A DNA stretch of 64,000 nt from Patescibacteria group bacterium. GTDB lineage: Bacteria > Patescibacteriota > Patescibacteriia > Magasanikbacterales > GWA2-37-8. Positions 1,155 through 47,962 of the stretch are shown in pieces; the stretch's first letter is position 1, and each line of letters starts with the position of its first letter. Location: assembly GCA_004321885.1 (NCBI GenBank), contig SCQK01000004.1, positions 22,684 to 86,683 of the forward strand, given 5' to 3'. A model generated the notes under the pieces. That model saw only the letters and a program-made list of their open reading frames with translations. It was not told the DNA's origin and searched no databases. Position numbers and translations under genes: made by a program.

Positions 1155-1227
1155 GCGCCTGTAGCTCATCGGTTAGAGCAATTGCCTTATAAGCAATGGG
1201 CAGATGGTCCGACTCCATCCAGGCGCA
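1155..1227 (+). tRNA. tRNA with anticodon UAU (Ile, AUA-decoding); no CCA encoded
   Basis: Hand-folded cloverleaf: acceptor GCGCCUG/CAGGCGC, D-arm GCUC-AUCGGUUA-GAGC, anticodon stem AUUGC/GCAAU with loop C-U-UAU-A-A, 5-nt variable loop, T-arm GAUGG-UCCGACU-CCAUC. Confidence 0.7.
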
Positions 1228-1234
1228 CGAATAA

Positions 1235-1894: not shown

Positions 1895-2656
1895 ATGCCC
1901 AAGCAACCTTATAAAATCATTGCTGAAACTGCGGATTATCTGGTGGTGGAAAAACCGGCCGGCCTGTTGACGCATTCCACCGCCAAACGCGAGCCAGACT
2001 CACTGGCTGAGTTGTTGGCAAAAAAATACCCGGAAATGCGCGAGGTGGGCGACTCCCCGGCCGAACGCCCGGGCATTGCGCACCGGCTGGACAAAGAAGC
2101 CTCGGGCTTGCTGGCGGCGGCGCGCACCCAAAAGATGTTTGAACATTTGAAAAAACAGTTCCAGGAACGAACCGTGGAAAAAGAATACATCGCCCTGGTA
2201 CACGGCAAGGTGGCAAAAGATGTCGGCGAAATAAACTTCCCCATCGGCCGAGCGACGAACAAGGAGAGGATGGCGGCCAGGCCGTTTACCCCTCCCTCGC
2301 CACCACACCAAAAATTTTGGTGTGGTGGCGAGCCCTCCCCTTCTAAGGGGGAGGGGAAAATGGCCAGCACTGAATTTGAGGTGGAAAAGCGATTCATCAA
2401 TTTCACCCTATTGCGCGTCAAAATCCACACCGGCCGCATGCACCAGATTCGCGTTCATTTGCTCGCCTACGGCAACCCGCTCGTCGGCGACCCGCTCTAC
2501 ATCAAAAGAAAACAAAAGCGCAAATGGGACCAGGCGCTGGGACGACTTTTCTTGCACTGCGTAAAATTAGTGTTCAAAGATTTGAATGGGGCGCCGCGAA
2601 CATTTACTTCCCCGTTGCCGCTTGAATTGGAAAATTTTCTTAAAAAAATAAAGTAG
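1895..2656 (+). CDS. RluA-family pseudouridine synthase carrying a 24-aa in-frame insertion encoded by a palindromic repeat
   Basis: HRLDKEASG and GRMHQIRVHL motifs. The insertion FTPPSPPHQKFWCGGEPSPSKGEG sits between conserved segments. Confidence 0.8.
   Translation: MPKQPYKIIAETADYLVVEKPAGLLTHSTAKREPDSLAELLAKKYPEMREVGDSPAERPGIAHRLDKEASGLLAAARTQKMFEHLKKQFQERTVEKEYIALVHGKVAKDVGEINFPIGRATNKERMAARPFTPPSPPHQKFWCGGEPSPSKGEGKMASTEFEVEKRFINFTLLRVKIHTGRMHQIRVHLLAYGNPLVGDPLYIKRKQKRKWDQALGRLFLHCVKLVFKDLNGAPRTFTSPLPLELENFLKKIK
2297..2356. repeat. Near-perfect 35-bp palindrome (TCGCCACCACACC..GGTGTGGTGGCGA) plus a family-A GC-rich palindromic element, in frame inside rluA
   Basis: Arms 2297..2309 and 2319..2331 are exact reverse complements. 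CCCTCCCCTTCTAAGGGGGAGGGG lies at 2333..2356. Confidence 0.8.
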
Positions 2657-3251: not shown

Positions 3252-3276
3252 ATTCCCCCGACTAAGTCGGGGGAAT
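3252..3276. repeat. Family-B hairpin ATTCCCCCGACTAAGTCGGGGGAAT overlapping the rplS ribosome-binding site (RBS) and first ATG
   Basis: A 10-bp perfect stem. The 3' arm GGGGGAA is the only SD-like sequence for rplS. Confidence 0.7.
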
Positions 3277-3619: not shown

Positions 3620-3628
3620 ATAAAAAAA

Positions 3629-3705
3629 CTGGCTCCATACTCTGTGTGGAGCCAGTTTGCAATACGGCTCCACAGCCCCGACTAAGTCGGGGACTATGGA
3701 GCCAG
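3629..3705. mobile_element. MITE-like family-B element with two stacked hairpins, in reverse orientation relative to the copies at 13683
   Basis: CTGGCTCCATACTCTGTGTGGAGCCAG + TTTGCAATAC + GGCTCCACAGCCCCGACTAAGTCGGGGACTATGGAGCC. It is the reverse complement of the 13683..13769 unit except for the central loop base. Confidence 0.7.
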
Positions 3706-3733: not shown

Positions 3734-6658
3734 TTATCCTTTTAAGTACTTCCCGGTCCAGCTTTTTTTGCTCTTCATAATATCACGCGGAGCGCCCGCG
3801 GCCACAATCTCTCCGCCCTTGTCCCCGCCCTCTGGCCCCATGTCTATCACCCAATCGGCTGAACGTATCACGTCCAGATTGTGCTCTATCACCAGCACGG
3901 TGTTGCCTTTGGCCACCAATCTGTTCAACACTTCCAACAAATGTTTTATATCTTCAAAATGCAAGCCAGTGGTGGGTTCGTCCAAAATATATAATGAATG
4001 TCCGGACGCGCTGCGCGACAGCTCGGCGGACAGCTTTATTCTCTGGGCTTCGCCGCCCGAAACCGTGGTGGCCGGCTGGCCCAGCTGAACATAGCCCAAA
4101 CCGATTTCGCGCAACACGCCCAACTTGCCGGCGATGGGCGGAACGTCGTTAAAAAAAGCAAAGGCCTCGTCTACGGTCATACGCAAGACATCGGCGATAT
4201 TCTTGTTGCGGTAATGTATCTCCAGGGCCTCGCGATTATAGCGGTCTCCGCCGCACTCATTGCACTGCATGTACACGTCGGCCAAAAATTGCATGGGGAT
4301 GCGCACATAGCCCTCACCGGCGCAGGCCTCGCAACGGCCCCCGCCCTTCACGTTAAAACTGAACTTGCCGGCGTCGTAGCCGTTCATTTTGGCTTCGGGC
4401 AAACCGGCGAACAAATCGCGAATCAAAGTAAACAGCCCCGTGTACGTAGCCGGATTACTGCGCGGGGTGCGGCCGATGGGCGACTGGTCCACGGTAATTA
4501 CTTTGTCAATATTTTCAATGCCTTTAATTTTTTTGTGCTCGCCCGGCAAATCTTTGGCCCGATAAAAATGGCGGGCCAGCTGTCTGCCCAAAATATCCAC
4601 GATGAGCGAAGACTTGCCCGAACCAGACACGCCGGTCACGCACACGAATTTGCCCAAGGGGATGTCGGCGTCCACATTTTTCAAATTAAAGGCCCTGGCG
4701 CCGAGGATAGAAATTTTTTTGTTGGATTTTTGCAGACGCGCCCCCATTTTTATGGGCAGGACGCCCCGGCCGACTAGATACTTTCCCGTAACCGATTTTT
4801 TATTTTTTTTTATCTGTTGTAAACTGCCGGCCGCCACGATTTCGCCGCCGGAGAGGCCGGCGCCCGGCCCCATATCAATTAAATAATCCGCGCCGGCCAT
4901 CATAGCGCTGTCGTGCTCCACCACTATTACAGTGTTGCCCAAATCGCGCAAAAATTTCAGGGCGCCGATGAGTTTGGCGTTGTCTTTGGGATGCAGGCCC
5001 ACCGAAGGCTCGTCTAAAATATATATAATGCCGGTAAGGCCCGACGACAGCTGGCCGGCCAAACGCACGCGCGTCACCTCTCCACCCGAGAGCGTGTTCA
5101 TGGCGCGCCCCAGCGACAAGTATCCCAAGCCCACCTCCTGTAAATTTTGCAAGCGCTTGATTGTTTCTTTGATGATGGTTTCACCGTGCTGGGCAAAAAC
5201 TTTGCCTCCCATCCCCCATTTGTCCCCCCCTCTGGCAGAGGAAGAAAGCTTTTCCAAAACCGACACGGCTTGCCCGGCCGACAGCTCGGAAATATCCGCG
5301 ATGCTGTACTGGCCCAGCTTCACGGCCAATGACTCCACGCGCAAACGTTTGCCATGGCACAGGGAACACACCTGCTCGCGCATGTACTGTTCTATTTCAC
5401 CGCGCACATAATCAGAATCGGTCTCCAAATGCCGCTGGGTCAGATTGGTAATCACCCCGGAAAAAACGGTTTTCTTTCCGTCTATTTCGTATGTCTCGTT
5501 GTCGCCGTACAAAATCAGCTTCATCTGCGCATCGGAAAGTTCTGCTACTGGCGCATTCAGAGAAAAATCATGTTTCTGCGCGACCGCGGCCAGAATTTTT
5601 TGGTACCACGTTTGATTGCCGGTAATGCGGGTCCAGGGCTGGATAGCGCCCTCGGCCAAAGTAAGCCGCTTGTTAGGCGCCACCAGCTCCGGGTCAACTT
5701 CCATGGTCACGCCCAAACCAGTACAACGCGGGCAGGCGCCATAAGGGCTGTTAAAACTAAAACTGCGCATGTCAATCGCCGGCATTACTTTGCCGCATTT
5801 AGCGCACAGCCCTTCGGTGGAAAACAACACTTCCCTCCCCCTTTTTAAGGGGAAGGCGGGGTGGGGGTAAGACGCCGCAATCACACTGCCGTTGCTCAAA
5901 TCCAAGGCCGTCTCCACCATTTTGGCGATGTTGGGCTGTTTCTTGGCATTCTGGGTGGAAATATTTCCCACCACCAGTTCCACGTTGTATTTTTTATTGG
6001 GCAAAAAACCAAAACGCGCGAATTCGTTTAGTTTCATCAGCTCGCCGTTTACCCGCACCGTGTCAAAACCCGACTTTTCCACTTTGTCCAGCAATGCGGC
6101 ATGACTGGGTTCCCCTCCCCCTTTTAGAGCTTGTCCCGAACTTGTTTCGGGAGGGAGGACAGAGGAGGGGGTATTTGGCGAGGATGGGGTCAATGGAGAC
6201 AACACCCACACCTCGGAACTATTCCGCGTCATCTTTCTCACTTCCTCGGTAATCTGGCCGGGCGTAAACGACATCACTGGCACGCCGCAACCGGGGCAGT
6301 ATTGCGCGCCCACGCGCGCGAAGAGCAAACGCAAATAATCGTAAATCTCGGTGATAGTGCCCACGGTGGAACGCGGATTCTGCGAAGAACTTTTCTGGCC
6401 GATGGCGATGGTGGGAGAAAGCCCCTCCACGCTGTCCACGTCCGGCTTGTCGCGCACGTCCATAAACTGGCGCGCGAAAGAAGACAGCGACTCGGCGTAG
6501 CGGCGCTGGCCCTCGGCGTAAATTGTGTCAAAGGCGAGCGAGGATTTTCCCGAACCGGACAAGCCGGTAATCACTACCAGCTTGTTCTTGGGAATTTCCA
6601 CGTTTATATTCTTCAAGTTGTGTACTCTCGCCCCTTTGATGATTATTTTATCAGCCAT
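3734..6658 (-). CDS. uvrA: Excinuclease ABC subunit A (UvrA) with two in-frame family-A repeat insertions
   Basis: 974 aa. Two ABC ATPase modules with Walker [11 protein letters not shown] and [10 protein letters not shown], signature LSGGE twice, and zinc-finger cysteines. Collinear with E. coli UvrA apart from the short inserts. Confidence 0.95.
5832..5868. repeat. Family-A GC-rich palindromic element, in frame in uvrA (encodes ..[15 protein letters not shown]..)
   Basis: CCCTCCCCCTTTTTAAGGGGAAGGCGGGGTGGGGGTA. The uvrA reading frame is uninterrupted. Confidence 0.8.
6112..6173. repeat. Family-A element split by a small internal palindrome, in frame in uvrA (encodes ..[31 protein letters not shown]..)
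   Basis: CCCCTCCCCCTTTT..[AGAGCTTGTCCCGAACTTGTTTCGGGAGGGAGGACAG]..AGGAGGGGGTA. Confidence 0.75.
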
Positions 6659-11801: not shown

Positions 11802-11836
11802 CCTCCCCTTGTTAAGGGGAGGATTAAGGAGGGGTA
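11802..11836. repeat. Family-A GC-rich palindromic element, intergenic, upstream of rnj
   Basis: CCTCCCCTTGTTAAGGGGAGGATTAAGGAGGGGTA. Confidence 0.8.
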
Positions 11837-11860
11837 TTCTTAATTATTAAAGAGAAATAT

Positions 11861-13682: not shown

Positions 13683-13852
13683 CTGGCTCCATAGTCCCCG
13701 ACTAAGTCGGGGCTGTGGAGCCGTATTGCAAACTGGCTCCACACAGAGTATGGAGCCAGCGGGTGTAGAAAATCGCTGGCTCCATAGTCCCCGACTAAGT
13801 CGGGGCTGTGGAGCCGTATTGCAAACTGGCTCCACACAGAGTATGGGGTCAG
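13683..13852. mobile_element. Two tandem MITE-like family-B elements between the convergent genes rnj and ldh
   Basis: Unit 13683..13769 (CTGGCTCCATAGTCCCCGACTAAGTCGGGGCTGTGGAGCCGTATTGCAAACTGGCTCCACACAGAGTATGGAGCCAG) is repeated at 13776..13852 with a degenerate last arm. Confidence 0.8.
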
Positions 13853-15243: not shown

Positions 15244-15268
15244 AAACGCCCCTGTTAAGGGGGCGTTT
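15244..15268 (-). terminator. Rho-independent terminator of rnpB
   Basis: AAACGCCCC-TGTTAA-GGGGGCGTTT, followed on the minus strand by a U-rich tract (plus-strand AAACAAAAA at 15232..15243). Confidence 0.6.
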
Positions 15269-15269
15269 G

Positions 15270-15724
15270 TGGTTCATGGTTATAAGCCGAATTTTGTACC
15301 CCGACGTTACGTCGGGGCGATGTTCATTTCTCTGGTCTTGACATTGCTGTCAAAATCTTAGCGAGCGAACTTTTTATCCCGACTAAGTCGGGACTCTGCT
15401 CTTGCGCCAGACAGGGCTTGGCACTCTTCGACGTTGCCGCCGAAGGGAGTATGGTAGCTTTGGTCTCGAGAACCACAACTCCCATACACTTTTCACCTTT
15501 GACGAACCCCGACTAAGTCGGGGTGAACGTCCGCCTGTGGCGGACTCTCATGAATCGCTAGTATTGTCTCTGTGCCGCTTTCCCTACGCCGACGTTGCCG
15601 CCGACGTGGCGGGTGTTACCCGTTGCCTTTTTCTTTACCGGCTAGTTCCGCTAAGGGCGGACAGACGGAAAGGGCGTTCGGACTTTCCTTCCCGACTAAG
15701 TCGGGACGAACATCTGCCACGAAC
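15270..15724 (-). ncRNA. rnpB: RNase P RNA, bacterial type A
   Basis: Minus-strand RNA reads ..GGAAGGAAAGUCCGAAC.. (P4 5' strand), ..GGGUAACACCCGCC.., ..AGGUGAAAAGUG.., ..AUGAACAUCG-CCCCGACGUAACGUCGGGG-UACAAAAUUCGGCUUAUAACC.. (P15-P18 and P4 3' strand; compare E. coli AUGAAUGACUGUCCACGACAGAACCCGGCUUAUCGG). P1 is GUUCGUGG/CCAUGAAC. The ORF-track ORFs 15023..15361 and 15402..15731 lie inside it. Confidence 0.85.
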
Positions 15725-15730
15725 TGATTA

Positions 15731-18335: not shown

Positions 18336-19529
18336 ATGCGCGTTGGCATTGATGTCAGGCCGCTGATGAATGACGTGCGCACCGGCATTGGCGAATACAC
18401 GCATTTTTTGCTGGACACTATTTTTGACATTGATAAAAAGAACGAATATTTTCTGTTTTACAACTCCGGCAAAGATGTCGGCGCCAATATTCCCCAGTGG
18501 ACGCAAAATAATATTCATTATGTCGCGAGCAGATGGCCCAATAAAATTTTCAACGCGTCCATAAAATTTTTCAACCGGCCGCGAATCAAAGAGGTGGACA
18601 TTTTTTTTTCTCCTAATCTCAACTTCACCGCCCTGTCGCCGAAAACAAAATTTATTCTCACGGTTCACGACTTGTCCTTTGAGCTGTTTCCGGAATTTTT
18701 TTCCGCCAAACAGCGGCTGTGGCACAAAATGATAAACCCGCGCAGACAATGCCAGCGGGCCGATATTATTATCGCGCCCTCTGAAAACACCAAGCGGGAT
18801 TTGAGGGAGATATATAATATAGAAGAGAAAAAAATAAAAGTGATTTACCCGGGAATATGTCATCCCGACCCGCCACAGGGCGGGGAGGGATCTCTGTTCA
18901 CGGCTGGCTCCATAATCCCCCCCACAGGGGTGGAGCTAAACTGCAAGCTGGCTCCACAGCCCGCCTTTGGCGGGATTATGGAGCCAGCCAATTCCAATCC
19001 CTACATCCTCTTCCTCGGCACCATTGAGCCGCGCAAAAATATTATCGGCCTGATAGAGGCGTTTGAAAAAGCCTGCCCCTCGCTCCCGGCGCCTTACACC
19101 CTCGTTATCGCCGGGGCCGCGGGCTGGAACAATAAACAGATTTACGAACGCGCCAAAAATTCCCCCATTAAAGATAAAATTAAAATTTTGGGATACGTGC
19201 GGCCGGAAGAAAAGCCGGCTCTGTATGCCGGCGCGGCCTTGTTTTGCTATCCCAGCATTTACGAGGGCTTTGGTTTTCCGGTTTTGGAAGCCATGTCCGC
19301 GGGGACTCCGGTTTTAACCTCAAACCGCTCTTCCCTGCCGGAAATAACGAGCGGCGCCGCGCACCTGGTAAATCCAAACAATGTTTCCGACATGGCCGCA
19401 GGCATAATAAACATTTTAACCAACGAAAAACTGCGCAATTTTTTGAAAGAAAAGGGCCAAGAGCAGGCCGCGAAATTTTTATGGCAAGAAGCGGCGGAAA
19501 AATTTTTAAGCGTTATTCGCTCTTTGTAA
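18336..19529 (+). CDS. Glycosyltransferase family 4 with an in-frame MITE-like (family-B-related) insertion
   Basis: GT4 motifs (LGTIEPRKNI, YEGFGFPVLEAMSAGTPVL). The roughly 30-aa insert SLFTAGSIIPPTGVELNCKLAPQPAFGGIMEPA is encoded by the repeat at 18903..18987. Confidence 0.8.
   Translation: MRVGIDVRPLMNDVRTGIGEYTHFLLDTIFDIDKKNEYFLFYNSGKDVGANIPQWTQNNIHYVASRWPNKIFNASIKFFNRPRIKEVDIFFSPNLNFTALSPKTKFILTVHDLSFELFPEFFSAKQRLWHKMINPRRQCQRADIIIAPSENTKRDLREIYNIEEKKIKVIYPGICHPDPPQGGEGSLFTAGSIIPPTGVELNCKLAPQPAFGGIMEPANSNPYILFLGTIEPRKNIIGLIEAFEKACPSLPAPYTLVIAGAAGWNNKQIYERAKNSPIKDKIKILGYVRPEEKPALYAGAALFCYPSIYEGFGFPVLEAMSAGTPVLTSNRSSLPEITSGAAHLVNPNNVSDMAAGIINILTNEKLRNFLKEKGQEQAAKFLWQEAAEKFLSVIRSL
18903..18987. 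repeat. Variant MITE-like element with CTGGCTCCA..TGGAGCCAG arms, inserted in frame in the GT4 gene
   Basis: CTGGCTCCATAATCCCCCCCACAGGGGTGGAGC + TAAACTGCAAG + CTGGCTCCACAGCCCGCCTTTGGCGGGATTATGGAGCCAG. It shares its outer arms with the units at 3629 and 13683. Confidence 0.75.
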
Positions 19530-26056: not shown

Positions 26057-26165
26057 CCCCTCCCCTTGATATCTGCGGATATTTACTCATTCGTTCGGAA
26101 GTAAAAGTATAAACTTTTACTTCACTCACTCATTTCGTAAATAAGGGGAGGGTTAGGGAGGGGTA
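26057..26165. repeat. Composite: a family-A element (CCCCTCCCCTTGAT ... ATAAGGGGAGGGTTAGGGAGGGGTA) split by a 70-bp AT-rich GAGTGA-family element
   Basis: Left half at 26057..26070 and right half at 26141..26165. The insert at 26071..26136 contains the palindrome GAAGTAAAAGT-ATA-AACTTTTACTTC and ATATCTGCGGATAT. The right half encodes the miaB C-terminus LPLPNPPLIYEMSE. Confidence 0.75.
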
Positions 26166-27456
26166 AAATAATTTCACCCTTTAAGACCCAAACATCAGCG
26201 GAAGTAATCTTAACATCCAAAATTTTTCCAATCAAATTTTTTGCGCCGGCAAACTGCGCGAGCTTCATTTCCGAAGAGTTGCCCGAGCAAATCCCTGCCT
26301 CGCATTTGTCCGCCAATACCGAAACTGTTTTGCCGATGTATTTTTGATTTTTGCGATAAGTTGTTTCTTCCATCAATTCTTGTAAAATCTGCCAGCGGCG
26401 CTTTTTTTCTAGGCGCGGCACATCATCTTTGAAGGCCCTGGCCGCGGCCGTCCCACTGCGCTGACTATACATGGCCGTGTAGGAAATGTCAAAATCACAC
26501 TCTTTGTACAGAGCCACCGTGTTTTGAAACTGTTTCTCGGTCTCGCCGCAAAAACCCGCGATAATATCCGTGCCAATGGCGATACTTGGTTTGGCCTGGC
26601 GGATTTTTTTTATCAAATCAATATATTGCTCCCGCGTGTACTGGCGATTCATCTTGCGCAAAATTTCATTATCCCCGCTTTGAACCGGCAGGTGCAGATA
26701 ATTCACCTGCTTGGGCAGTTTCAGCGCCTCTATTTGCGCGTCGGAAAAATAACGCGGGTCCGCGGCGGTAAAATGCAAGCGCTCCAACCCAGCCAACTTA
26801 TTCAGCTCTTTCAGTAAATCGACGAAACTGTCCCCCTCCCCCTTTTTAAGGGGGAGGTTGGGTAGGGGTAAATCCGGATCGCGGTAATTATTCACCACCT
26901 GCCCGAGCAGAATAATTTCTTTCGCGCCATTTTCAATCGCTATTTTTACCTCGTTAATAATTTCTTTGGCCGGCCGGTTTTTCTCGCGGCCGCGCGCCTG
27001 CGGCACCACGCAATAGGTGCAATAATTATCACAGCCGGTCTGAATAGTGATAAACGTTTGAAATCTACTCGTTCGCGCCGGCGCCAACTCTAAATAATCT
27101 CCAAGGTCAGCGCCTCCCAGCCATCTTGACAGCACCCCCATTTCGTGTATCGGAAAATACAAGTCAACCCCTTTTAGCCTGCTTTTTAACTTCCCGTCTT
27201 TGTCGCGGCCCGGCATACAGCCGGTAACAGCGATTGTCAAATCCGGCTTTTTTGCCTTAAGTTGGCTCCAATTTCGCACTAGCCCGTGAACGCGGTCTTC
27301 GGCGCTTTGGCGCACCGAGCAGGTATTGACAATTAGTAAATCCGAGTTTTCGGCTTTGGCGCTTCTGGTCATCCCCAAGAAATTCAAAAAACCGGCGATT
27401 CTCTCTGAATCGTTTTTGTTCATCTGACAGCCGAAGGTAACGAGAAAATACTTCAT
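26122..27456 (-). CDS. miaB: tRNA methylthiotransferase, radical-SAM MiaB family
   Basis: MTTase N-terminal domain (FLVTFGCQMNKNDSE), radical-SAM CxxxCxxC (GCDNYCTYCVVP), TRAM C-terminus. Contains an in-frame family-A insert ([16 protein letters not shown]). Confidence 0.85.
   Translation of the reverse strand: MKYFLVTFGCQMNKNDSERIAGFLNFLGMTRSAKAENSDLLIVNTCSVRQSAEDRVHGLVRNWSQLKAKKPDLTIAVTGCMPGRDKDGKLKSRLKGVDLYFPIHEMGVLSRWLGGADLGDYLELAPARTSRFQTFITIQTGCDNYCTYCVVPQARGREKNRPAKEIINEVKIAIENGAKEIILLGQVVNNYRDPDLPLPNLPLKKGEGDSFVDLLKELNKLAGLERLHFTAADPRYFSDAQIEALKLPKQVNYLHLPVQSGDNEILRKMNRQYTREQYIDLIKKIRQAKPSIAIGTDIIAGFCGETEKQFQNTVALYKECDFDISYTAMYSQRSGTAAARAFKDDVPRLEKKRRWQILQELMEETTYRKNQKYIGKTVSVLADKCEAGICSGNSSEMKLAQFAGAKNLIGKILDVKITSADVWVLKGEIILPLPNPPLIYEMSE
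26832..26870. repeat. Family-A element in frame inside miaB
   Basis: CCCCCTCCCCCTTTTTAAGGGGGAGGTTGGGTAGGGGTA. Confidence 0.8.
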
Positions 27457-45253: not shown

Positions 45254-45268
45254 CCCGACTCAGTCGGG
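45254..45268. repeat. Short family-B hairpin CCCGACTCAGTCGGG embedded in a larger inverted repeat (GGATGTGTTC..GAACACATCC, 45228..45312)
   Basis: Nested stem-loops that also include GAGGCCTC and CTTTTCCGCGCGCGAAAAG palindromes. Confidence 0.6.
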
Positions 45269-45332
45269 ATGGCCGAGGCCTCGCGGCCGAGGAAAGTGAG
45301 AACACATCCAGACGCGTGAGTCATTACAAAAA

Positions 45333-47552: not shown

Positions 47553-47585
47553 CCTCCCCTTTTAGGGGAGGGACAGGGTGGGGTA
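47553..47585. repeat. Family-A element between rplR and rpsE
   Basis: CCTCCCCTTTTAGGGGAGGGACAGGGTGGGGTA. Confidence 0.75.
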
Positions 47586-47587
47586 GA

Positions 47588-47962
47588 TTAAAATTGCAAG
47601 CCGCCGGCCCTGGCGCCTTCAGCCAAGGCTTTGACGCGGCCGTGGTACTTGTATCCGCCGCGGTCAAAAACTATTTTGACTATATTTTTCTTCTGCGCTT
47701 TTTCGGCCAATAATTTTCCCGTCAAAAAACTCTGCGCCGCTTTGCCGCCATATCCTTCGGCTTTTTTCTCCTTGATTTGCGAGCCGTCGGCCGCGCACAG
47801 GGTCTGGCCCTTGTCGTCATCTATCAGCTGGGCGGAAATTTTTTTCAAACTGCGGAAAACCGAAAGCCGCGGCGTTTGGGCCGTGCCTTTAACATCGGCG
47901 CGCACGCGGCTGTGGCGCGCTTGCCTTAATTTATTTTTTGTGGGATTGAATAATCTTTTCAT
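47588..47962 (-). CDS. rplR: 50S ribosomal protein L18
   Basis: 124 aa; ..RHSRVRADVKGTAQTPRLSVFRSLKKISAQLIDD.. matches the L18 family. Confidence 0.85.
   Translation of the reverse strand: MKRLFNPTKNKLRQARHSRVRADVKGTAQTPRLSVFRSLKKISAQLIDDDKGQTLCAADGSQIKEKKAEGYGGKAAQSFLTGKLLAEKAQKKNIVKIVFDRGGYKYHGRVKALAEGARAGGLQF

What the first reader, a model, noticed from the sequence alone, without database searches (positions are those of the whole stretch)
2297..2356. RluA-family gene contains a 35-bp near-perfect palindrome plus a family-A element in frame
- TCGCCACCACACC-AAAAATTTT-GGTGTGGTGGCGA is immediately followed by CCCTCCCCTTCTAAGGGGGAGGGG.
- Together they encode a 24-aa insert (FTPPSPPHQKFWCGGEPSPSKGEG) between the conserved RMAA and the downstream RluA motifs.
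- The pair looks like two stacked hairpins.
Basis: seen in the sequence. Interest (0 to 1): 0.6.

Follow-up and report, generated by a model that had tools for sequence, protein, structure and literature searches.

The report
Nested palindromic repeats inside rluD
A pseudouridine-synthase gene of a Patescibacteria (CPR) bacterium carries, in frame, two small hairpin-forming repeat elements, one nested inside the other; this is the known "selfish palindromes inside genes" phenomenon, here in a new lineage and in an unusually small form.

Summary
An 18+18-nt perfect palindrome (2296-2332) and a G/C hairpin (2333-2356) lie in frame in an RluD-like gene (1895-2656).

The anatomy needs correcting. 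The "family-A element" starts upstream at 2285 and encloses the palindrome. Family A is a ~35-nt unit of C-arm, loop, G-arm, short loop and mirror G-arm. This is the architecture of E. coli BoxC/PIT/TM_ECO "intrastrand-triplex" repeats. The window holds 10 copies, and 6 overlap coding sequence in frame (rluD, uvrA twice, miaB twice, ruvX). In rluD the palindrome ("P") replaces the unit's 2-5-nt second loop.

P is itself a dispersed element. A second copy (38077-38109) is a precise 33-nt in-frame insertion in recO, absent from an 85-89 % identical ortholog. Palindromes with identical 12-nt arms occur in other CPR genomes, including in frame in a Falkowbacteria mnmA.

Relative to 119 orthologs the rluD loop is 13 aa longer, not 24. 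The insert is predicted to be a disordered surface loop. The same loop carries unrelated palindromic inserts in other lineages.

Verdict: nested REP/RPE-like selfish repeats tolerated in a permissive loop. This is a new member of a known kind, of moderate interest.

The parts
1895..2656 (+). Host gene: RluD-like pseudouridine synthase (RluA family), 253 aa, lacking the N-terminal S4 domain of most orthologs.
   Evidence: Pfam PF00849, E 4.8e-29. 100 % identical to an NCBI MAG protein from 'Patescibacteria group bacterium'; best other hits are 66-68 % identical Magasanikbacteria-type RluD proteins. AlphaFold model pLDDT 88.
2285..2296 (.). Distal arm of the family-A unit: TTTA + CCCCTCCC. On the minus strand this reads GGGAGGGG-TAAA, the mirror G-arm plus the conserved TA tail.
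   Evidence: All 10 window copies end ...GG(A/T)GGGG-TA. This arm is a perfect 8/8 mirror of the arm at 2333-2340.
2296..2332 (.). Palindrome P: arms 2296-2313 and 2315-2332. The 29-nt core CCACCACACC-AAAAATTTT-GGTGTGGTGG spans 2300-2328, and 2296-2328 corresponds to the 33-nt unit inserted in recO. P occupies loop 2 of the family-A unit.
   Evidence: Alignment with the recO copy and copies from other genomes.
2333..2356 (.). Core hairpin of the family-A unit: CCCTCCCC-TTCTAA-GGGGGAGGGG.
2280..2365 (.). Whole composite, including the outer inverted repeat GGCCGTTTACCCCTCCC / GGGAGGGGAAAATGGCC. It encodes residues 129-157 (RPFTPPSPPHQKFWCGGEPSPSKGEGKMA).
   Evidence: inverted repeat I2. Folds (z -8.7 as RNA, -9.9 as DNA).
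38077..38109 (.). Second copy of P: a 33-nt in-frame insertion in recO (37541-38290, minus strand). It encodes ACHHTKNFGVV.
   Evidence: The protein alignment shows an 11-aa gap in all 7 orthologs. DNA alignment with the empty site in L178. The same filled allele occurs in an independent Logan assembly.
5834..5872 (.). Family-A copy A2, in frame in uvrA (3734-6658, minus strand). It encodes [13 protein letters not shown], a 9-aa insertion relative to the syntenic ortholog.
6113..6176 (.). Family-A copy A3, in frame in uvrA, with a different hairpin (TCCCGAA..TTCGGGA) nested in loop 1. It is a 22-aa insertion relative to the ortholog.
11802..11838 (.). Family-A copy A4, intergenic, between tRNA-Leu and the RNase J gene.
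26058..26168 (.). Family-A copy A5, with a 76-nt insert in loop 1. It lies between miaB and miaA and supplies the last ~15 codons and the stop codon of miaB.
26835..26873 (.). Family-A copy A6, in frame in the miaB-like gene (26122-27456, minus strand). It encodes [15 protein letters not shown].
41205..41259 (.). Family-A copy A7, a fully palindromic form with mirror arms on both sides, between the mgtE-like and Nramp genes.
42494..42530 (.). Family-A copy A8. It encodes the last ~13 aa of RuvX (..FTPPYSSPYKGEDN*).
43717..43752 (.). Family-A copy A9 (degenerate), directly downstream of adk.
47553..47588 (.). Family-A copy A10, between rplR and rpsE inside the ribosomal-protein operon.

Best explanation
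The feature is a nested pair of small, non-coding, structure-forming repeat elements that landed in the coding sequence of rluD and were kept because they stay in frame, carry no stop codon and fall in a permissive surface loop.

The outer element ("family A") is a ~33-40-nt unit: C-arm, loop 1, G-arm, short loop 2, mirror G-arm, TA. This is the architecture of the E. coli BoxC/PIT/TM_ECO intrastrand-triplex / G-quadruplex-hairpin repeats.

The inner element (P) is a 33-nt unit: a 29-nt palindrome plus 4 nt. It sits where loop 2 of the family-A unit should be.

Shown:
- Both are dispersed families.
- Both occur in frame in other genes of this genome.
- P in recO is a precise 33-nt gain relative to a close relative.
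- The rluD loop is 13 aa longer than in its nearest orthologs.
- The inserted peptide is predicted to be disordered.

Inferred:
- Order of events: family A first, then P into its loop 2.
- Mode of spread: copying of single-stranded hairpin DNA by a trans-acting enzyme of the REP/RAYT (IS200/IS605 Y1-transposase) kind, or a replication template-switch / short-patch gene-conversion process.
- The peptide has no function of its own.
For: Family A is a repeat:
- The window holds 10 copies. A strict architecture pattern gives 4 matches against 0.00 expected.
- The G-arms are mirror repeats: 5 of 9 arm pairs are perfect and the others differ at 1-2 positions.
- Unit length is 31-40 nt without nested inserts.
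- The architecture equals the published TM_ECO description (PMC4666352) and the G4-hairpin switch (PMC5100583).

Family A enters genes in frame:
- uvrA carries +22 and +9 aa relative to the syntenic ortholog.
- miaB carries an internal copy and a 3'-end copy.
- The RuvX C-terminus is encoded by a copy.

P is nested: on the minus strand the sequence reads GGGGAGGG-[36 nt holding P]-GGGAGGGG-TA, whereas other copies have 2-5 nt at that position.

P is an insertional element:
- The second copy matches 27/29 of the core.
- The 11-aa insertion in recO is absent from 7 orthologs, including one 85-89 % identical.
- The DNA empty site is GAGTTCGCG|ATTGGGAAAG.
- The same filled allele is present in an independent assembly.
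- The same 12-nt arms occur in Kaiser-, Falkow-, Moran-, Saccharibacteria and other MAGs, several copies per genome.
- P is a 12-aa in-frame insert in a Falkowbacteria MnmA relative to solved MnmA structures.
- P supplies the C-terminus and stop codon of a Kaiserbacteria uvrB.

The rluD loop:
- Its length is 13 aa in 64 of 120 orthologs and 26 aa here. The nearest neighbours in the tree have 13-14 aa.
- AlphaFold gives overall pLDDT 88. Residues 129-154 are coil, and 139-150 have pLDDT below 50.

Nested hairpins in loop 2 of identical-arm units recur in metagenomes, with other hairpin sequences.

Published precedent: REPs inside ORFs, notably uvrA, uvrB and recombination genes, and REPs inserted within other palindromes (PMC3733652); RPEs in Rickettsia (PMC10969869).
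Against: - No transposase or RAYT-like gene was found among ~55 window ORFs, so the mobilising activity is unidentified.
- The rest of the genome could not be searched.
- No empty or "family-A-only" allele of the rluD site was found. The closest rluD relative is only 66-68 % identical, so the two-step order is inference.
- The sizes do not add up simply. Family A (~37 nt) plus P (33 nt) is ~70 nt, but the net gain is 39 nt. About 10 native codons must therefore have been lost or overwritten.
- There is no clear target-site duplication at the recO site.
- P lacks the GTAG/CGTC tags of classical REPs.
- Only two P copies lie in 64 kb.
Confidence: 0.8

Rival explanations
1. The composite is a selected cis-acting nucleic-acid structure. 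As RNA it could be a translational pause site or an mRNA-stabilising or processing hairpin. As DNA it could be a triplex / G-quadruplex / cruciform switch. On this view it is kept in rluD for regulation and is not merely tolerated.
For: - The fold is extremely stable (-63.6 kcal/mol, z -8.7).
- All 7 expanded RluD loops whose DNA was fetched are strongly hairpin-forming (z -5.5 to -8.9).
- The recO copy of P differs from the rluD copy by two C->T changes that keep G.U pairs on the mRNA strand.
- In other genomes P sits 12-13 nt after stop codons, as REPs and terminators do.
- TM_ECO forms a triplex in vitro and HPG1 forms G4/hairpin structures (PMC4666352, PMC5100583).
Against: - 64 of 120 orthologs, including the nearest ones, have the short 13-aa loop.
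- The inserts in different lineages belong to at least 4 unrelated sequence families.
- The same elements sit in unrelated genes and in intergenic spacers with no common position.
- Published tests found no promoter, terminator or expression effect for PIT/BoxC (PMC4666352).
Confidence: 0.1
2. The palindrome arose in place by a replication template switch or inverted duplication, triggered by the structure-prone family-A unit. On this view it is not a copy of a mobile element.
For: - The 18-nt arms are perfect with a single central base.
- The outermost 4 bp (CTCG/CGAG) are specific to this copy.
- Triplex motifs are reported as sources of local genomic instability (PMC4666352).
Against: - The same 29-nt core (27/29) is a clean 33-nt insertion in recO, 36 kb away.
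- The 12-nt arms are identical in many other genomes.
- Independent local genesis of the same sequence is very unlikely.
Confidence: 0.04
3. The inserted peptide is an adaptive protein feature, for example an RNA- or ribosome-contacting extension of the beta-hairpin next to the active site. On this view the hairpin-forming DNA is incidental.
For: - The insert is in frame and stop-free.
- The loop is already expanded in CPR RluD (13 aa against 3 aa in E. coli RluD).
- About 30 of 120 orthologs have longer loops.
Against: - The same DNA elements are translated in different frames in different genes: P gives SPPHQKFWCGGE in rluD but ACHHTKNFGVV in recO. Family A is read in three different frames (TTT-ACC-CCT, TAC-CCC, TTA-CCC).
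- What is conserved between copies is the DNA and its pairing, not a peptide.
- The insert has pLDDT below 50.
Confidence: 0.04
4. The feature is an assembly or binning artefact of the MAG.
For: - The rluD protein is known from a single NCBI MAG record, and no independent contig encoding it is on record.
- Palindromes can arise from chimeric reads.
Against: - The reading frame is kept across 74 nt.
- Family-A copies are consistent across 10 loci.
- The recO P allele is reproduced in an independent Logan assembly.
- Analogous inserts occur in many independent assemblies.
Confidence: 0.02

Closest known systems
Rickettsia palindromic elements (RPEs) and intragenic REPs (Ogata et al. 2000; Di Nocera et al. 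2013, PMC3733652; review PMC10969869)
   Same: - Short palindromic repeats are dispersed in the genome, and a large share is inserted in frame in housekeeping genes without destroying them.
- Inserts land in loops.
- DNA-repair genes (uvrA, uvrB, recombination genes) are frequent hosts.
- Repeats sometimes supply C-termini and stop codons.
- REPs inserted inside other small palindromes have been described.
   Different: - The host is a Patescibacteria/CPR genome.
- P is only 33 nt (11 aa), against ~100-150 bp for RPE-1 and 20-30 aa for typical intragenic REP dimers.
- Neither element carries the GTAG or CGTC terminal tag (tested, not met).
- There is no sequence similarity to RPE families.
- P's 12-nt arms are identical across several CPR classes, whereas REP families are usually species- or genus-specific.
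BoxC / PIT / TM_ECO intrastrand-triplex motif and HPG1 G-quadruplex-hairpin switch of E. coli and other Proteobacteria (Holder et al. 2015, PMC4666352; Kaplan et al. 2016, PMC5100583)
   Same: - The architecture and size match: C-rich arm, 3-7-nt loop, G-rich arm, ~3-nt loop, second G-rich arm that mirrors the first, ~37 nt in all.
- Some copies have the TTA second loop.
- Palindromic double forms exist.
- Many copies occur per genome.
- No associated transposase is known.
   Different: - The arm sequence differs: CCTCCCC/GGGGAGG here, CCCTCNCCC/GGGNGAGGG in TM_ECO. The exact TM_ECO pattern gives 0 matches in the window.
- TM_ECO is reported as always intergenic, whereas 6 of 10 copies here overlap coding sequence in frame.
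- Here the loops host other hairpins (P in loop 2 of A1; other hairpins in loop 1 of A3 and A5).
- The TA tail is conserved here.
REP/BIME elements mobilised by RAYT (IS200/IS605-type Y1 transposases)
   Same: - The elements are 20-40-nt imperfect palindromes.
- Intergenic copies lie next to 3' ends between co-directional or convergent genes.
- There is no target-site duplication.
- G.U-compatible stem changes occur.
   Different: - No RAYT gene is seen in the window.
- There is no GTAG head.
- Mobilisation was not demonstrated.
Bacterial MITEs (e.g. Correia, ERIC, QMITE)
   Same: They are non-autonomous, structured and dispersed, and occasionally form in-frame fusions.
   Different: The elements here are far smaller (33-40 nt). 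They have no terminal inverted repeats flanking an internal region, and no target-site duplication at the one site where an empty allele is available.

Membership tests
Intragenic palindromic repeats (RPE / intragenic REP kind) | Short palindromic sequence present in several dispersed copies in the same genome | tested here: met
   Family A has 10 copies in 64 kb. P has 2 copies.
Intragenic palindromic repeats (RPE / intragenic REP kind) | In-frame, stop-free insertion in a conserved gene, absent from orthologs | tested here: met
   rluD loop is 26 aa against a modal 13 aa. recO has +11 aa against 7 orthologs, and an empty site is seen at DNA level. uvrA has +22 and +9 aa.
Intragenic palindromic repeats (RPE / intragenic REP kind) | Insert lies in a surface loop and leaves the fold intact | tested here: met
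   AlphaFold model has pLDDT 88. The insert is coil between strands 126-128 and 159-166, and residues 139-150 have pLDDT below 50. This is a prediction only.
Intragenic palindromic repeats (RPE / intragenic REP kind) | The host protein with the insert is expressed and active | not testable with these tools
   This needs proteomics or enzymology.
GTAG/CGTC-tagged REP superfamilies (Di Nocera 2013) | Conserved GTAG or CGTC tetranucleotide at one end of the palindrome | tested here: not met
   P is flanked by CTCG../..CGAG in rluD and by CTTG../..TCGG in recO. Family A ends GGGG-TA-(A/T/G); only A10 reads GTAG.
GTAG/CGTC-tagged REP superfamilies (Di Nocera 2013) | RAYT / Y1 transposase gene in the genome, flanked by the repeats | tested here: inconclusive
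   None was found among ~55 window ORFs. The rest of the genome is not available.
BoxC / PIT / TM_ECO triplex motif | C-arm, loop (3-6), G-arm, loop (~3), second G-arm that mirrors the first; ~37 nt | tested here: met
   Parsing 9 arm sets from 8 of the 10 copies gives mirror matches of 8/8, 7/7, 8/8, 8/8, 7/7, 7/8, 6/8, 6/8 and 6/8. Lengths are 31-40 nt without nested inserts.
BoxC / PIT / TM_ECO triplex motif | Sequence pattern CCCTCNCCC-N3-6-GGGNGAGGG-N3-GGGNGAGGG | tested here: not met
   0 matches in the window. The arms here are CCTCCCC/GGGGAGG.
BoxC / PIT / TM_ECO triplex motif | Strictly intergenic location | tested here: not met
   6 of 10 copies overlap coding sequence.
BoxC / PIT / TM_ECO triplex motif | Forms an intrastrand purine-motif triplex (or G4) in vitro | not testable with these tools
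   This needs CD/NMR on the oligonucleotides.
MITE | Terminal inverted repeats plus a target-site duplication, 50-500 bp | tested here: not met
   The P insertion is 33 nt and shows no convincing duplication at the recO site.

The most novel reading that the evidence does not exclude
P may be more than a lineage-specific selfish repeat. It could be a hairpin element shared across CPR. Its 12-nt arms (CCACCACACCAA/TTGGTGTGGTGG) are identical in Magasanik-like, Kaiser-, Falkow-, Moran- and Saccharibacteria MAGs, and in MAGs labelled Bdellovibrionales and Gammaproteobacteria, while its loop varies freely. That pattern would fit recognition as a hairpin by a conserved, still unknown protein. Such an element could insert into structured DNA (the loop of a triplex-type repeat) and into genes, with DNA-repair genes over-represented: recO, the 3' end of uvrB, and upstream of recG and radA. 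If true, it would be a REP-like system of very broad host range and the smallest known protein-decorating mobile element (11 aa).
Probability: 0.2. Interest if true: 0.65.

Novelty: new member of a known kind. Interest (0 to 1): 0.4.

Why it matters
It extends the "palindromes inside genes" phenomenon, known from Rickettsia RPEs and intragenic REPs, to the Patescibacteria, whose small genomes might be expected to exclude such DNA.

It shows that a BoxC/PIT-type triplex / G-quadruplex-hairpin motif, described as strictly intergenic in E. coli, can live in frame inside essential genes and can host a second hairpin element in its loop.

There are three practical consequences:
- Such inserts inflate and distort protein alignments, and they create spurious "lineage-specific loops" in CPR proteins. 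The same RluD loop carries at least 4 unrelated palindromic inserts in different lineages.
- They mark permissive sites in enzymes.
- The recO filled/empty pair offers a clean natural example for studying how 33-nt hairpins are copied.

Tried and rejected
- **Known RNA families.** Rfam found nothing at the site at the gathering threshold. In E-value mode it gave only chance microRNA-like hits with E of 0.59 or more.
- **P as a LexA/SOS operator.** P lies upstream of recG and radA and inside or next to recO and uvrB. I rejected this as the main reading for three reasons. Spacer length varies from 4 to 11 nt, most copies lie 5-13 nt after stop codons or between convergent genes, and the recO copy is a clean insertion. 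The Patescibacteria SOS paper is not held.
- **An empty or intermediate allele of the rluD site.** The nearest rluD ortholog is only 66-68 % identical, and the MAG's own rluD protein is not indexed on any contig.
- **Phage association.** P has 2 hits in IMG/VR, which are the same sequence on opposite strands. The family-A architecture has 64 hits across contigs of 42-72 % GC. This shows that the architecture is widespread, not that a phage is a vector.
- **Transposase search.** Pfam scans of ~55 window ORFs found none.
- **Metagenome scan for family-A units with a long loop 2.** At least 120 contigs matched. 129 of 158 distinct inserts are simply a second, inverted unit (double forms). About 10 carry other simple hairpins, and none carries P.
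- **Target-site duplication at the recO site.** None is convincing.
- **Literature.** Full-text searches for palindromic elements in Patescibacteria and for the translated repeat peptides gave nothing.
Full report
**1. What is there**

The quoted sequence is present at the stated coordinates. The inverted repeat is slightly larger than reported. Its arms are 2296-2313 and 2315-2332, 18 nt each and 100 % complementary, with one base between them. It is the longest perfect hairpin in the window and never appears in shuffled sequence. The G/C hairpin CCCTCCCC-TTCTAA-GGGGGAGGGG follows at 2333-2356.

A third inverted repeat, 2280-2296 / 2349-2365, closes the two hairpins into one structure. As RNA the 92-nt region folds at -63.6 kcal/mol (z -8.7). 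As DNA the opposite strand folds at -36.3 kcal/mol (z -9.9).

Everything lies in frame in ORF 1895-2656(+), a PseudoU_synth_2 protein. The protein is 100 % identical to an NCBI MAG protein from a "Patescibacteria group bacterium". Its relatives are Magasanikbacteria-type RluD proteins at up to 68 % identity.

**2. Anatomy re-read**

Searching the window for the C/G-rich core found ten related elements. Oriented alike, they read as follows:

(TTTT)-C-arm (CCTCCCC) - loop 1 (TTnnTAA) - G-arm (GGGGAGG) - loop 2 (2-5 nt) - second G-arm (GGAGGGG or GG[T]GGGG) - TA.

The second G-arm is the mirror image of the first. It is a perfect mirror in 5 of the 9 arm sets parsed and differs at 1-2 positions in the rest. 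A strict version of the pattern gives 4 matches against 0.00 expected.

In rluD, read on the minus strand, the sequence is CCCCTCCCCC-TTAGAA-GGGGAGGG-[36 nt]-GGGAGGGG-TAAA. The 36 nt are the palindrome. So the palindrome is not next to a family-A element. It sits in loop 2 of one, and the element reaches upstream to 2285. This also explains the outer stem.

**3. It is an insertion, but a 13-aa one**

In 120 orthologs the stretch between the conserved RMAA and the invariant Lys of GKxAxTEF is 13 aa in 64 cases. Here it is 26 aa. In a neighbour-joining tree built without the loop, this protein groups with orthologs that have 13-14-aa loops.

The two elements together are ~70 nt but the net gain is 39 nt. 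About ten native codons must therefore have been lost or overwritten. The element-encoded GEGK may also partly coincide with the native xxGK. This cannot be resolved without a closer relative.

AlphaFold with the 120-sequence alignment gives a confident fold (pLDDT 88). Residues 129-154 are coil between two strands, and residues 139-150 have pLDDT below 50. In E. coli RluD the corresponding turn is 3 residues long.

**4. Family A is a triplex-type (BoxC/PIT/TM_ECO-like) repeat that lives in genes here**

A full-text search with the related E. coli sequence led to two papers:
- Holder et al. 2015 (PMC4666352) describe a 37-nt motif CCCTCNCCC-N3-6-GGGNGAGGG-N3-GGGNGAGGG. It was formerly called BoxC or PIT. 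It occurs 3610 times in 262 proteobacterial genomes, forms an intrastrand purine-motif triplex in vitro, and is "always located intergenically" in E. coli K-12 with no linked mobile element.
- Kaplan et al. 2016 (PMC5100583) read the same motif as a G-quadruplex/hairpin/duplex switch.

Family A has the same architecture and size but different arms. The TM_ECO pattern itself has 0 matches in the window.

Unlike TM_ECO, six of the ten copies overlap coding sequence in frame:
- rluD;
- uvrA twice, as +22 and +9 aa relative to the syntenic ortholog in GCA_023246655.1;
- a miaB-like gene, internally and at its 3' end including the stop codon;
- the last ~13 codons of ruvX.

The other four copies lie next to 3' ends between co-directional genes. 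One of them sits between rplR and rpsE inside the ribosomal-protein operon, so it cannot be a strong terminator.

The reading frame differs between copies (TTT-ACC-CCT in rluD, TAC-CCC in uvrA, TTA-CCC in miaB). What is shared is DNA, not peptide.

The architecture is widespread. It gave 64 hits in IMG/VR contigs of 42-72 % GC, and at least 120 metagenome contigs carry units with identical arms.

**5. The palindrome P is a second, independent repeat family**

A relaxed search found a second copy at 38077-38105, matching 27 of the 29 core positions. It lies in recO (37541-38290, minus strand) and encodes ACHHTKNFGVV. All seven RecO orthologs lack these 11 residues, including one that is 85-89 % identical.

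At DNA level the relative (L178, a Logan contig) reads GAGTTCGCG|ATTGGGAAAG. The window has a 33-nt insertion at that point, CTTG-TCACCATACC-AAAAATTTT-GGTGTGGTGG, with no convincing target duplication. The filled allele is reproduced in an independent assembly.

Part of these are probably chance hairpins of high-GC actinomycetes.

About 20 loci share the longer arms CCACCACACCAA/TTGGTGTGGTGG with variable loops. They come from Kaiserbacteria (3 copies), Falkowbacteria (2), Saccharibacteria, Moranbacteria and other CPR MAGs. A few MAGs are labelled Bdellovibrionales or Gammaproteobacteria.

Contexts in those genomes include:
- In a Falkowbacteria MAG, P is a 12-aa in-frame insert (INHHTNHVGVVV) in MnmA relative to solved MnmA structures.
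- In a Kaiserbacteria MAG, P supplies ...KPPHQ and the stop codon of uvrB.
- Elsewhere it lies 5-13 nt after stop codons or between convergent genes, or just upstream of recG and radA.

The question "does the palindrome occur elsewhere?" is therefore answered yes, both in this genome and beyond it.

**6. The RluD loop is a recurrent landing site**

About 30 of 120 orthologs have loops of 18-42 aa, scattered over the tree. DNA was fetched for six of them. Together with the window, all seven expanded loops are strongly hairpin-forming (z -5.5 to -8.9) and belong to at least four unrelated palindrome families:
- family-A-like double units in L001, L003 and L300;
- a GACTCGCGAAGCGAGTC type in L301;
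- a GTCATCCTGAGCG... type in L302;
- the GTCATCCCCGCGAAAGCGGGGAT type, translated IPAKAGIQ..SRFHGNDN, in L303.

This fits a permissive turn that repeatedly survives insertion. A sequence preference is possible, because the native purine-rich GAG-GGN-GAR codons resemble a G-arm, but this was not tested.

**7. How it most likely works**

Shown:
- Two dispersed families of structure-forming DNA exist in this genome.
- Both are gained in frame inside conserved genes.
- In rluD one is nested in the loop of the other.
- The resulting peptide is a disordered surface loop of an otherwise intact catalytic domain. The HRLD motif and all invariant residues are kept.

Inferred:
- Family A inserted first and P then entered its loop 2. 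Loops of family-A units are repeatedly occupied by other hairpins (A3 and A5 in the window). About ten environmental units with identical arms also carry other simple hairpins in loop 2.
- Copying proceeds through single-stranded hairpin DNA, either by a REP/RAYT-like trans-acting enzyme or by template switching or short-patch conversion.
- Only in-frame, stop-free, loop-located copies survive selection. In the opposite orientation family A carries TAA and TAG codons in two frames.

No transposase was found among ~55 ORFs of the window, so the enzyme is unknown. I put about 0.8 on this overall reading.

Rivals are a selected regulatory nucleic-acid structure (0.1), in-place genesis of the palindrome (0.04), an adaptive peptide (0.04) and an artefact (0.02).

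**8. Comparison with what is known**

The phenomenon matches the intragenic REP/RPE kind. Ogata et al. found RPEs in frame in Rickettsia genes (review PMC10969869). Di Nocera et al. 2013 (PMC3733652) report:
- REPs entirely within ORFs;
- many hosts in DNA synthesis and repair, with uvrA and uvrB hit more than once;
- REP termini providing stop codons;
- REPs inserted within other small palindromes.

All of these traits recur here. The membership tests show that neither element carries the GTAG/CGTC tag. Family A shares the architecture of TM_ECO but not its sequence. Neither element is a MITE.

What is new:
- the host phylum;
- a BoxC/PIT-type unit inside genes;
- the very small size of P (33 nt, 11 aa);
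- the nesting in loop 2;
- the identity of P's arms across several CPR classes.

**9. Verdict**

The feature is an ordinary but neat instance of selfish palindromic repeats tolerated in a permissive protein loop. It is a new member of a known kind (interest 0.4).

The most novel reading not excluded is that P is a hairpin element of broad host range, recognised by a conserved factor and biased towards repair genes (probability ~0.2).

Noticed in passing
window 15267-15725 (minus strand): The RNase P RNA gene is 459 nt against the 367-nt class-A model. Several of its helices or insertions are the same hairpin, CCCGAC-TTA-GTCGGG (for example 15299-15317 and 15506-15524). The hairpin also occurs after gmk (3252-3276) and at 45252-45270. 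This is a third palindrome family, here inside a structural RNA gene.
   Followed up: partly
window 1895-2656; alignments A1/A2: This RluD (253 aa) lacks the ~70-aa N-terminal S4 RNA-binding domain present in most of the 120 orthologs. The upstream gene ends 4 nt before its start codon.
   Followed up: partly
RluD orthologs: L001 4279-4437, L003 3824-3973, L300-L303: The turn between RMAA and GKxAxTEF carries hairpin-forming inserts of at least 4 unrelated palindrome families in different CPR lineages (z -5.5 to -8.9). It is a recurrent landing site.
   Followed up: yes
window 3626-3658, 13714-13836, ~18900-18990: A fourth hairpin family, built on TGGAGCCAG...CTGGCTCCA, is present. Three copies lie in tandem around 13.7-13.8 kb.
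   Followed up: no
window 1155-1228: tRNA-Ile with anticodon UAU. Most bacteria instead use a lysidine-modified CAU tRNA to read AUA (from general knowledge).
   Followed up: no
window 38000-40000: A low-GC island (38 % against ~50 %) holds a DUF3800 gene (38656-39195, minus strand) with its DUF3800-II RNA motif (38568-38631) beside it, directly next to recO.
   Followed up: no
L054 1518-2714 (Falkowbacteria mnmA): Besides the P insert, this MnmA has a second 10-aa G/C-rich insertion (RVPRPRAGRS) relative to solved MnmA structures.
   Followed up: no
L011 4119-4146, L047 4129-4156, L053 1938-1965, L111 2457-2485: P-type palindromes lie upstream of recG and radA start codons: 45 nt in L011 and 31 nt in L111. 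In L011, L047 and L053 they are flanked by TATA..TATA. This could reflect a regulatory use in some genomes.
   Followed up: partly
window 38077-38105 compared with 2300-2328: The recO copy of P differs from the rluD copy by two C->T changes in one arm. Both changes keep G.U pairing on the recO mRNA strand.
   Followed up: no
metagenome loci L179-L258 (many contigs of sample Ga0209792): One environmental genome carries dozens of ~67-nt double units: CCCTCCCC-loop-GGGGAGGG, a ~21-nt spacer, then CCCCCTCCCCC-TTGAG-GGGAGGGGTA. The arms are identical to family A.
   Followed up: partly
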